Below are positions 13,901 to 16,900 of a DNA stretch of 64,000 nucleotides, piece after piece. Location: the NCBI RefSeq assembly GCF_057098645.1, contig NZ_CM169472.1, one strand, 5' to 3'. The first letter of the stretch is position 1; every line of letters starts with the position of its first letter. Position numbers: made by a program.

Positions 13901-16900
13901 TGCAGAAATAATCTCGCCTGAACTGAAGCGGATACCGACGGGGAGAAATAATGATACGCCCCACGCAGCAGGCCATTTTCGCGGCTTAGTTGCCAGTTAC
14001 GCGAAAAATAGGGGTCCACCAGCTTTTCGCCTTCCGTCGCCTTAATAAAAGCAAACTGTAAGCGGATACCGTTGTCGCGCATTTTTGCCACCCGCTGCCA
14101 GTCGATCCGCTCCTGCCAGCGCGAAACATCTATTCCGTGAATGGTGTAACTGGCAGGAATGCGAATAGCGAAAGATTTAACCGGGCGATAACCGTAGAAG
14201 TGGATGTAGTCTGTAATCTGAACTGCTGTCGAATAGAAAAAATTCACCGTCTGACGCGGATAAATTGCAACGATGGAAATTAGCCCAAGAGCGCATAATA
14301 GAGAGGTGAGTTTTTTTCGACTGGTAATTCTTAGCTGCATTGGTTTCATCCCTGAATGTCAGTGCCAAAGGCTGACAATAACCAAAGCAGCTATAGTACG
14401 GTGCTCACCACCAGGCGTGGAAGTGGTGAACCGGACCAATACCGTGACCAACTTCCAGCGTGTCGGCCTGGGCTAACGCCGATGAAAGCCAGCTTTTTGC
14501 CTCCTGTACGGTGTCAGCCCAGTTTGTATGGCGCGGGCGTAGTGCAGCCAACGCCGCAGAGAGTGTACAACCAGTGCCGTGGGTGTTTTTGGTCATAATG
14601 CGCGGTGCGGTAAACCGTTGTTCACCCTCGCGGGTAAACAGCCAGTCCGGGCTTTGCTCATCATCCAGATGACCACCTTTCATTAGCACTGCGCCACAGC
14701 CCATCGCCAACAGCGATCGCCCTTGTTCCAGCATTTCCTGTTCGGTGCGCGCGTGTGGCGCGTCGAGCAAGGCGGCAGCTTCGGGCAAGTTTGGCGTTAT
14801 TAATGAAACCTGTGGCAATAATCGACTGCGCAGCGTAGCAACCGCCGAAGGTGAAAGCAGCGGGTCGCCGCTTTTTGCCAGCATAACGGTGTCGAGTACC
14901 ACGTTTTGGATCTGATAACGTTGCAACCGTTCTGCCACCGCTTCAACAATATCGGTTTCCGCCAGCATACCGATTTTAGTGGTATCGATTCGCACATCGC
15001 TGAACACCGAATCGAGCTGGGCGGCGACAAAATCAGGCTCAATGCGATACACCGACTGTACGCCACGGGTATTTTGCGCCACCAGTGCAGTAATAACTGA
15101 GCAACCATAAGCGCCAAGTGCCGAGAAGGTTTTAAGATCGGCCTGAATCCCCGCACCACCACTCGGATCAGTACCGGCAATCGTCAGAGCGTTAATTCGT
15201 TTCATGCCTGCACCTCCTGCGTCAATTGCCAGAGCGCATCAAGGAAATGTGGAACAAAACTGCCTGGCCCCTCGCTTCTGGCGACTGCGCGTTCTCCGGC
15301 TTGTTTCATCCAGTGACAGGCAGATGCGACATTTTCCAGCGTATCGCCTGGTAACGCACAGCAGGCAGCGACAACCGCCGATAATGCACAGCCAGTTCCT
15401 ACCACTTTGGTCATTAACGGATCACCACCGTGAATACCAATGATACGATGTCCATCGGTAACATAATCCATCTCGCCAGTGACCACGACGATTGCGCCAG
15501 TTTCCCGTGCCAGTGTTTGTGCAGCGGGTATCGCGTTAGCTGCGGCGTCAGTGGTATCCACTCCCCGTCCGCCATTAGCAATGCCAGCTAATGCCATGAT
15601 TTCCGAAGCATTACCACGTATCGCTGCCGGTTTAAAAGATAAAAGTTCATGACAAAAATGGCGGCGATAATCGAGCGCACCCACCGCTACTGGATCAAGC
15701 GTCCAGGGTGTTTGAGCGCTTTTTGCTTGCTCAACGGCAGCACGCATCGCCTGAGCGCGTGGCTGCGTCAGTGTGCCAACGTTAATCAACAAGGCACTGG
15801 CGATAGCCGCAAACTGACTGGCCTCTTCGGTTTCGATAACCATCGCTGGCGATGCACCGAGCGCCTGCAAGGTATTGGCGGTAAAGGTTTGCACCACATC
15901 ATTGGTCATGCAGTGCACAAGAGGGGAATGTTGGTGAAAAAGGTGTAACGCGTGCGCAGATTGCGCTGAACCCAGCAGGTCGACTTGCATAGTTTGCTCC
16001 TGCCATAACGTGAAGAAGCAATGACCTGGTGGTCCGTGACTTCCCTACGCTGGCATTATCCAGATCAGGTGATACGGGTATTTCTCAGCCTTCACGCAGA
16101 AGGGCACCCCGAGTCGTTTGGTTGCGATGATAAATCGCAGAGGAGGATGGTAATGTCCAGCGCACGCGTTGTAAACGAGGAAAAACGGCAGTTTTACAAT
16201 CGCGTTAATAAATTATTTGATATATGAATCCAGCACCTTCAGAACGACATCCAGATCTTCTTCACGTTTTAGCTCATCCCCCTGGTGAACGATGTGTTCC
16301 GTCAGATGACCTTTAATCACTTCCCGCATCAGACCGTTTACCGCGCCACGGATAGCAGCAATCTGTTGTAAAACTGCAGCGCATTCGTGCGGCTCGTCGA
16401 GCATTTTCTTGAGCGCCACGACCTGGCCCTGAATCTTACTGGCACGCGCTTTCAGTTTCTGTTTATCACGGATTGTATGAGACATGGCAACACCTGGTTA
16501 ACAAGAATATGAAAAATCATAGCACTATTAATCTACTGGGGGGTAGTATCAGGTACTGGGGGGGAGTAGAATCAGATTGCCGAATTAATACTAAGAATTA
16601 TTATCATGACCGAATGTACAACTCTTCTTCAGCAAGGAAACGCCTGGTTCTTCATCCCCAGCGCCATCTTACTTGGTGCGCTTCATGGCCTGGAACCAGG
16701 GCACTCAAAAACGATGATGGCGGCGTTTATCATCGCCATCAAAGGCACCATTAAACAAGCGGTGATGCTCGGACTGGCAGCAACTATTTCGCATACCGCA
16801 GTGGTCTGGTTAATTGCCTTTGGCGGGATGGTGATCAGTAAGCGCTTTACTGCTCAATCAGCAGAACCGTGGCTCCAGCTGATTTCCGCAGTGATCATTA

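What the first reader, a model, noticed from the sequence alone, without database searches (positions are those of the whole stretch)
16486..16605. Paired G-tract operators in the rcnR-rcnA intergenic region
Two near-identical TACT-G6/7-N-AGTA elements 5 bp apart match the operator type described for RcnR. This is a known regulatory site, recorded for completeness.
Basis: partly seen in the sequence, partly recalled or inferred. Interest (0 to 1): 0.15.

Follow-up and report, generated by a model that had tools for sequence, protein, structure and literature searches.

The report
Known RcnR nickel/cobalt repressor operator
The two G-rich boxes between rcnR and rcnA are the already characterised binding sites of the E. 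coli nickel/cobalt-sensing repressor RcnR, here base-for-base identical to the K-12 sequence on which the published experiments were done, so the finding is correct but ordinary.

Summary
TACTGGGGGGTAGTA lies at 16534-16548 and TACTGGGGGGGAGTA at 16554-16568, on the + strand. A 5-bp spacer (TCAGG) separates them, giving 20 bp start to start. They are the only matches in the 64-kb window, even with 2 mismatches allowed; chance predicts 0.17.

The window is E. coli (100% identical to O145 strains). The flanking genes are rcnR (16213-16485, -), rcnA (16606-17430, +) and rcnB (17649-17987, +). The 120-bp intergenic region and the RcnR protein are identical to K-12 MG1655. Published work on E. coli defines the RcnR operator as two TACT-G6-N-AGTA motifs in this same intergenic region.

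In 80 related loci from Enterobacterales and one Vibrio, all 133 exact motif hits lie within 130 bp upstream of rcnR. Fifty-six loci carry two exact boxes, 55 of them spaced 20 bp, while the flanks and spacer diverge.

Published genome-wide transcription start sites map to 16508 (rcnR) and to 16558 and 16579 (rcnA). The boxes therefore cover the -35 region of PrcnR and the -10 and start regions of the rcnA promoters, which fits a shared operator repressing both genes.

Verdict: already known, low interest. Side observations are natural operator variants: a third box, a single box, G-tract length changes and a 150-bp deletion.

The parts
16534..16548 (+). RcnR box 1 (type 1 CsoR/RcnR-family site): TACT-G6-T-AGTA
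   Evidence: Exact match to the published TACT-G6-N-AGTA consensus. It is nearly invariant across 80 related loci. It lies at -40..-26 of PrcnR, and at -24..-10 and -45..-31 of the two rcnA start sites.
16549..16553 (+). 5-bp spacer TCAGG between the boxes. Its length is conserved and its sequence is not, except for the first T.
   Evidence: Spacing is 20 bp start to start in 55 of 56 loci with two exact boxes. The spacer sequence varies between species.
16554..16568 (+). RcnR box 2: TACT-G7-AGTA (G6 with N=G)
   Evidence: Exact match to the consensus. It is the better conserved of the two boxes and is the one retained in single-box species. It lies at -4..+11 and -25..-11 of the two rcnA start sites.
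16516..16524 (-). Inferred PrcnR extended -10 element, TGCTATGAT on the - strand (hexamer TATGAT 16521->16516, TG 16524-16523)
   Evidence: It sits 7 nt upstream of the published rcnR start site, which maps to 16508. The matching TA.CA columns are partly conserved across species. The promoter assignment is my inference.
16508..16508 (-). rcnR transcription start site (experimental, K-12)
   Evidence: Kim et al. 2012, PMC3415461 Table S1: position 2183841, - strand, 11 reads, 23-nt 5' UTR. The 51-mer maps exactly to the window.
16544..16549 (+). Inferred -10 hexamer TAGTAT for the upstream rcnA start site; it overlaps the right arm of box 1
   Evidence: It sits 8 nt upstream of the start site at 16558. 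This would explain why the N of box 1 and the first spacer base are both conserved T. The assignment is my inference.
16558..16558 (+). rcnA transcription start site 1 (experimental, K-12)
   Evidence: PMC3415461 Table S1: position 2183891, + strand, 12 reads, 48-nt 5' UTR. It maps to the window.
16567..16572 (+). Inferred -10 hexamer TAGAAT for the main rcnA start site; it overlaps the right arm of box 2
   Evidence: It sits 6 nt upstream of the start site at 16579. The 'gAaT' bases just after box 2 are conserved across species. The assignment is my inference.
16579..16579 (+). rcnA transcription start site 2 (experimental, K-12; the better supported of the two)
   Evidence: PMC3415461 Table S1: position 2183912, + strand, 25 reads, 27-nt 5' UTR.
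16213..16485 (-). rcnR, encoding the Ni(II)/Co(II)-responsive repressor that binds the boxes
   Evidence: NCBIfam NF011613 RcnR equivalog, 197 bits; Pfam PF02583. The protein is identical to K-12 RcnR and carries H3, C35, H60, H64 and RASK at 14-17.
16606..17430 (+). rcnA, encoding the Ni/Co efflux protein; the regulated target
   Evidence: NCBIfam NF007454, 555 bits; Pfam NicO; RefSeq annotation. It differs from K-12 RcnA at 2 residues.
17649..17987 (+). rcnB, encoding the periplasmic accessory protein downstream of rcnA
   Evidence: Pfam PF11776 RcnB; RefSeq annotation. PMC7055735 says RcnR regulates expression of RcnAB.

Best explanation
The two boxes are the tandem type 1 operator of the CsoR/RcnR-family repressor RcnR. 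They sit in the divergent rcnR / rcnA-rcnB promoter region of E. coli.

Without excess Ni(II) or Co(II), apo-RcnR tetramers bind. The published stoichiometry is one tetramer per TACT-G6-N-AGTA box. [quoted passage not shown]

The boxes overlap the -35 region of PrcnR and the -10 and start regions of the two rcnA promoters. Bound repressor therefore blocks RNA polymerase in both directions, repressing the efflux genes rcnA-rcnB and autoregulating rcnR. When Ni(II) or Co(II) binds RcnR (ligands include H3, C35, H60 and H64), its DNA affinity falls, the repressor leaves, and the efflux pump is made.

Shown here: the sequence, its identity to K-12, its position relative to experimentally mapped start sites, and its strong phylogenetic conservation. 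Taken from the literature: binding, stoichiometry, the recognition mode and the metal response. Inferred by me: the -10 hexamer assignments and occlusion of polymerase as the means of repression.
For: Two exact matches to the published consensus, 20 bp apart. The flanking genes are rcnR, rcnA and rcnB. The intergenic region and RcnR protein are 100% identical to K-12 MG1655. [quoted passage not shown] It describes a tandem of two type 1 sites, 1:1 stoichiometry, minor-groove contacts at TACT/AGTA and an A-form G-tract (PMC3902906). It says a homotetramer represses and Co/Ni releases it (PMC7105576). In fluorescence anisotropy on rcnA operator-promoter fragments, Ni(II) weakens DNA affinity from 1.5e-7 M to 3.1e-6 M (PMC11742986). 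The published H-C-H-H fingerprint (PMC11672702) and RASK motif (PMC3902906) are both present. Mapped start sites put the boxes over core promoter elements of both genes. Phylogenetic footprint: all 133 exact hits in 80 loci lie within 130 bp upstream of rcnR, 55 of 56 box pairs are spaced 20 bp, 78 of 80 loci have a divergent rcnA-type gene, and the conserved block spans 16532-16572 while the flanks diverge. The intergenic region is present in 5361 of 5426 complete E. coli genomes, at 99% identity or more in 5038.
Against: Nothing found argues against it. Caveats follow. The primary footprinting papers (Iwig & Chivers 2009; Blaha et al. 2011) could not be read, so binding is taken from how later papers quote them. 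The start-site read counts are low (11-25), as expected for a repressed locus, and the -10 assignments are mine. The generic promoter scan did not report these -10 elements. Its two hits would place starts inside the coding regions and do not fit the mapped start sites.
Confidence: 0.97

Rival explanations
1. The two boxes are a chance or neutral 20-bp tandem duplication with no regulatory role.
For: They form a simple 15-nt direct repeat at 93% identity. With 2 mismatches allowed, 3 of 100 shuffles of the window also gave 2 matches.
Against: Both boxes are exact consensus matches. They are conserved nearly unchanged from Escherichia to Hafnia, Erwinia, Tatumella and one Vibrio, while the spacer and flanks diverge. 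All 133 exact hits in 334 kb lie in the rcnR upstream region. Published binding data exist for this exact sequence.
Confidence: 0.01
2. The G-runs act mainly through an intrinsic nucleic-acid structure, such as a hairpin from the TACT/AGTA dyads, a larger cruciform, or a G-quadruplex on the G-rich strand, rather than as a protein operator.
For: There is an imperfect larger inverted repeat, 16522-16537 / 16565-16580, 75% complementary. Two G6/G7 runs lie on one strand.
Against: The single-stranded DNA fold of 16510-16590 is no better than shuffles: -3.4 kcal/mol, z = -0.13, with 84 of 200 shuffles as good. The dyad arms are only 4 nt. Two G-runs cannot form a canonical three-tetrad quadruplex. 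No Rfam family matches the intergenic region. The literature attributes the G-tract's role to A-form duplex shape read by RcnR. Quadruplex formation was not computed here.
Confidence: 0.01
3. The boxes are bound mainly by a different regulator, for example the paralogue FrmR, which also uses G/C-tract sites, with RcnR secondary.
For: RcnR scores 76.5 bits against the FrmR equivalog model. [quoted passage not shown]
Against: The adjacent regulator passes the RcnR equivalog cut-off (197 against 138) and fails the FrmR cut-off (76.5 against 133). It carries the RcnR H-C-H-H fingerprint rather than FrmR's P-C-H-x. The boxes co-occur with rcnR and an rcnA-type gene in 78 of 80 loci.
Confidence: 0.01

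Closest known systems
E. coli K-12 RcnR operator (tandem TACT-G6-N-AGTA; Iwig & Chivers 2009 J Mol Biol 393:514; Blaha et al. 2011 Biochimie 93:434)
   Same: Everything tested is the same. The 120-bp intergenic region and the RcnR protein are identical to K-12 MG1655. Motif, copy number, spacing and gene context all match.
   Different: No difference in the operator. The strain is an O145-type E. coli rather than K-12. RcnA differs from K-12 at 2 residues (F4C, H134D) and RcnB at 1 (A11V).
Type 2 CsoR operators (for example Streptomyces lividans or M. tuberculosis CsoR; PMC3902906)
   Same: Both are pseudo-palindromes with G/C tracts flanked by GTA/TAC-type dyads. Both overlap promoter elements and are bound by a tetrameric all-helical CsoR/RcnR-family repressor released by metal.
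   Different: [quoted passage not shown] The RcnR boxes have a single unbroken G6-7 tract and are reported to bind one tetramer per box.
FrmR operator at frmRAB (the formaldehyde-sensing paralogue)
   Same: [quoted passage not shown]
   Different: The effector (formaldehyde) and the locus differ. The regulator here is RcnR by equivalog score and H-C-H-H fingerprint. The frmR operator sequence itself was not examined here.

Membership tests
RcnR tandem type 1 operator (CsoR/RcnR family) | Sequence TACT-G6-N-AGTA: a 4-bp AT-rich inverted repeat flanking one unbroken G/C tract | tested here: met
   Two exact matches at 16534-16548 and 16554-16568. The consensus is as quoted in PMC7055735, PMC3902906 and PMC7105576.
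RcnR tandem type 1 operator (CsoR/RcnR family) | Two copies in tandem within the rcnA-rcnR intergenic region | tested here: met
   Both boxes lie in the 120-bp intergenic region 16486-16605, between divergent rcnR and rcnA. The tandem arrangement with 20-bp spacing is conserved in 55 of 56 two-box loci.
RcnR tandem type 1 operator (CsoR/RcnR family) | A cognate RcnR repressor (H-C-H-H metal-ligand fingerprint) encoded next to the site | tested here: met
   NCBIfam RcnR equivalog, 197 bits against a cut-off of 138. H3, C35, H60 and H64 are present and the protein is identical to K-12 RcnR. The fingerprint is described in PMC11672702.
RcnR tandem type 1 operator (CsoR/RcnR family) | Overlap with the core promoter elements of the repressed genes (a shared operator for rcnA and rcnR) | tested here: met
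   Published start sites (PMC3415461 Table S1) map to 16508 (-), 16558 (+) and 16579 (+). The boxes cover -40..-26 of PrcnR, and -24..+11 and -45..-11 of the rcnA promoters. The hexamer assignments are inferred.
RcnR tandem type 1 operator (CsoR/RcnR family) | Physical binding by apo-RcnR, released by Ni(II)/Co(II), with footprint and flanking DNA wrapping | not testable with these tools
   This rests on published experiments with E. coli RcnR, as quoted. The window's operator and protein are identical to K-12. The primary papers are not held.
RcnR tandem type 1 operator (CsoR/RcnR family) | Evolutionary conservation of the site relative to the surrounding non-coding DNA | tested here: met
   The conserved block spans 16532-16572 and the flanks are variable. 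All 133 exact hits lie upstream of rcnR.

The most novel reading that the evidence does not exclude
The operator may be naturally tunable. Box number and G-tract length vary, and this could reset the Ni/Co efflux set-point. Box number ranges from one (Erwinia psidii, Edwardsiella anguillarum, an Enterobacter sp.), through two (most taxa), to three (the Kosakonia/Phytobacter clade, and a 23-bp duplication in E. coli WW2 from wastewater sludge). G-tract length variants (G6, G8) occur in some E. coli assemblies. Under this reading the 20-bp repeat and the homopolymer would act as a slippage-prone, contingency-like regulatory element. The evidence does not exclude it. However, the homopolymer variants may be assembly errors, and I could not count how many genomes carry the duplication.
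Probability: 0.1. Interest if true: 0.3.

Novelty: already known. Interest (0 to 1): 0.05.

Why it matters
It matters little as a discovery. This is a textbook metalloregulator operator, found with the same sequence as in the strain where it was characterised. It has two uses. It is a positive control for the scan, since a reader working from raw sequence located a real, experimentally defined operator to the base. It is also a small comparative resource: the boxes, their 20-bp spacing, and the box-specific N bases (T in box 1, G in box 2) are conserved across Enterobacterales. Together with mapped start sites, that pattern suggests the right arm of each box doubles as part of a -10 hexamer for rcnA.

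Tried and rejected
1. I tried to read the primary papers (PubMed 19703465 and 21040754) and two related ones (PMC3970791, PMC2435081). None is held, so I relied on three later papers that quote the consensus.

2. I looked for the Salmonella rcnRA probe sequence in PMC4528141 and PMC5709419. No sequence appears in the main text.

3. The generic sigma-70 scan gave two hits: TTAACC-18-TACAAT on the - strand and TTGCCG-16-TATTAT on the + strand. Both would start transcription inside the coding regions and disagree with the mapped start sites, so I rejected them as promoters.

4. The Thomason dRNA-seq paper (PMC4288677) is not held. The Kim et al. 2012 Table S1 served instead.

5. I tried to count E. 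coli genomes carrying the WW2 23-bp duplication by megablast with the duplicated sequence. Normal genomes also scored 100% through overlapping pieces, so the search does not discriminate.

6. The single-strand structure explanation was rejected (z = -0.13).

7. Rfam finds nothing in the intergenic region.

Full report
**1. Observation**

The stretch 16486-16605 is exactly the non-coding gap between a 90-aa ORF on the - strand (16213-16485) and a 274-aa ORF on the + strand (16606-17430). It contains TACTGGGGGGTAGTA at 16534-16548 and TACTGGGGGGGAGTA at 16554-16568, separated by TCAGG, so the starts are 20 bp apart.

A search for TACTGGGGGGNAGTA on both strands with up to 2 mismatches finds only these two sites in 64 kb, both with 0 mismatches. 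Dinucleotide-preserving shuffles give a mean of 0.17 matches at that loose threshold.

**2. Identity of the locus**

The 1.35-kb stretch around the site is 100% identical to E. coli O145 chromosomes and is present in 5369 of 5426 complete E. coli genomes. RefSeq annotates the neighbourhood as thiD-thiM, a TPP riboswitch, rcnR, rcnA, rcnB, and yehA-yehB.

- The small ORF matches the NCBIfam RcnR equivalog at 197 bits against a cut-off of 138. It fails the FrmR cut-off, 76.5 against 133.
- The large ORF matches the nickel/cobalt efflux transporter model at 555 bits and Pfam NicO.
- The next ORF, 17649-17987, matches Pfam RcnB.

The 120-bp intergenic region is identical at every base to K-12 MG1655 (L002). 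The RcnR protein is also identical to the K-12 protein. It carries H3, C35, H60 and H64 and has RASK at residues 14-17. These are the published H-C-H-H fingerprint (PMC11672702) and the RASK motif noted in PMC3902906.

**3. Comparison with what is published**

Three independent papers quote the operator.

[quoted passage not shown] All three cite Iwig & Chivers 2009, and PMC7055735 also cites Blaha et al. 2011. I could not read either primary paper. A 2025 study measured an RcnR affinity for rcnA operator-promoter fragments of 1.5e-7 M for the apo form and 3.1e-6 M with Ni(II) (PMC11742986).

**4. Position relative to promoters**

Table S1 of Kim et al. 2012 (PMC3415461) lists experimentally mapped E. 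coli K-12 start sites with 51-nt upstream sequences. The three relevant 51-mers occur exactly in the window:

| Gene | Window position | Strand | Reads | 5' UTR |
|---|---|---|---|---|
| rcnR | 16508 | - | 11 | 23 nt |
| rcnA, start 1 | 16558 | + | 12 | 48 nt |
| rcnA, start 2 | 16579 | + | 25 | 27 nt |

Relative to these starts, the boxes lie as follows:

| Promoter | Box 1 | Box 2 |
|---|---|---|
| PrcnR | -40..-26 | -60..-46 |
| rcnA start 16558 | -24..-10 | -4..+11 |
| rcnA start 16579 | -45..-31 | -25..-11 |

Sequence elements at suitable distances are TGCTATGAT (an extended -10, 16524->16516 on the - strand), TAGTAT (16544-16549) and TAGAAT (16567-16572). Assigning these as promoter hexamers is my inference. 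The generic promoter scan reported other hexamer pairs, but these would start transcription inside the coding regions, so I discount them.

The layout fits the 'shared operator' named in the title of Blaha et al. 2011. Repressor bound at the two boxes would block RNA polymerase at both divergent promoters.

**5. Comparative evidence**

A scan of one genome per species with the RcnR protein returned 80 loci. They come from Escherichia, Citrobacter, Salmonella, Raoultella, Kosakonia, Buttiauxella, Cedecea, Hafnia, Rahnella, Erwinia, Tatumella, Edwardsiella, Morganella and one Vibrio.

- Across their 334 kb, on both strands, the exact motif occurs 133 times, and every hit lies within 130 bp upstream of rcnR.
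- Fifty-six loci have two exact boxes, and 55 of those are spaced exactly 20 bp.
- Seventy-eight loci have a divergent rcnA-type gene.

In sequences aligned on box 2 (73 unique), the conserved block runs from about 16532 to 16572, while the spacer and outer flanks vary. The variable 'N' is in fact box-specific: T in box 1 and G in box 2. The base after box 1 is a conserved T, and the bases after box 2 are a conserved gAaT. These are the bases needed for the TAGTAT and TAGAAT hexamers. That suggests, as inference only, that each box's right arm also forms part of a -10 element.

Within E. coli the intergenic region is found in 5361 of 5426 genomes, at 99% identity or more in 5038.

**6. Rivals**

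- Chance repeat: excluded by the conservation.
- Intrinsic single-strand structure: not supported. The DNA fold gives z = -0.13, the dyad arms are 4 nt, and no Rfam family matches the region.
- A different regulator such as FrmR: contradicted by the equivalog scores and the metal-ligand fingerprint.

**7. Verdict**

Novelty: already known. Interest is low.

The only mildly new material is a set of natural variants seen in passing:

- A third, degenerate box (AACTG7AGTT) in the Kosakonia/Phytobacter clade.
- A single box in Erwinia psidii, Edwardsiella anguillarum and an Enterobacter sp..
- A degenerate box 1 in Morganella.
- A 23-bp duplication in E. coli WW2 that creates a third box.
- G6 and G8 variants of box 2 in two E. 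coli assemblies, which may be homopolymer errors.
- An IS5 insertion just upstream of the rcnA start codon in ETEC4085.
- A 150-bp deletion between two 17-nt direct repeats in the Escherichia whittamii representative, which removes the whole control region and the first codons of rcnA.

Noticed in passing
L009:1160-1540 (Escherichia whittamii Sa2BVA5); window 16483-16499 and 16633-16649: The E. whittamii representative lacks 150 bp, exactly the stretch between two imperfect 17-nt direct repeats present in the window (CATGGCAACACCTGGTT / CAAGGAAACGCCTGGTT). The deletion removes the whole rcnR-rcnA control region, both RcnR boxes and about the first 10 codons of rcnA. This looks like a repeat-mediated deletion that inactivates the efflux system. 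It rests on a single draft assembly.
   Followed up: partly
L083:101-243 (E. coli WW2, NZ_CP081881.1, wastewater sludge): A 23-bp tandem duplication (GGGGGGGAGTAGAATCAGGTACT) creates a third RcnR box (TACTG7AGTA) and a second copy of the TAGAAT hexamer. I could not determine how many genomes carry it, because the megablast count did not discriminate.
   Followed up: partly
L084 (E. coli PE15) and L085 (E. coli strain 165), box 2: The box 2 G-tract is G8 in PE15, where rcnA is also annotated as frameshifted, and G6 in strain 165. These may be real slippage variants or homopolymer assembly errors.
   Followed up: no
L087:~210-312 (E. coli ETEC4085, NZ_CP122634.1); corresponds to window ~16598: An IS5-family element is inserted a few bases upstream of the rcnA start codon, downstream of both RcnR boxes and of the rcnA start sites.
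   Followed up: no
L050:1937-1951, L054:1597-1611, L059:1937-1951, L064:1366-1380, L070:1937-1951 (Kosakonia and related): A third, degenerate box AACTGGGGGGGAGTT lies 21 bp from box 1 on the rcnR side, and the intergenic region is about 20 bp longer. This is a three-box operator variant. Other members of the clade (L053, L057, L058, L065) carry the same element together with a one-base change in box 1.
   Followed up: partly
L052:1936-1950, L073:1938-1952, L074:1938-1952; L077-L081 (Morganella): An Enterobacter sp., Erwinia psidii and Edwardsiella anguillarum keep only one box, of the G7 type. In Morganella, box 1 is degenerate (TACAAAGAGGTAGTG) while box 2 is intact. Box 2 is the more strongly retained of the pair.
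   Followed up: partly
window 16025-16121 (-): A TPP riboswitch (Rfam RF00059, 71 bits) lies upstream of thiM-thiD, just beyond the 3' end of rcnR. It is annotated as such in RefSeq.
   Followed up: no
window 35083-35158 (+) and 8100-8170 (-): Rfam gathering-score matches to the OrzO-P antitoxin RNA (99.9 bits) and to naRNA4/CssrE (64.5 bits). Neither is related to this finding.
   Followed up: no
window 16615-16617 and 17005-17007 (rcnA codons 4 and 134); 17679-17681 (rcnB codon 11): RcnA differs from K-12 at F4C and at H134D, the latter inside the histidine-rich loop. RcnB differs at A11V. rcnR and the intergenic region are identical to K-12 at the nucleotide level, whereas rcnA is 98.8% identical.
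   Followed up: no
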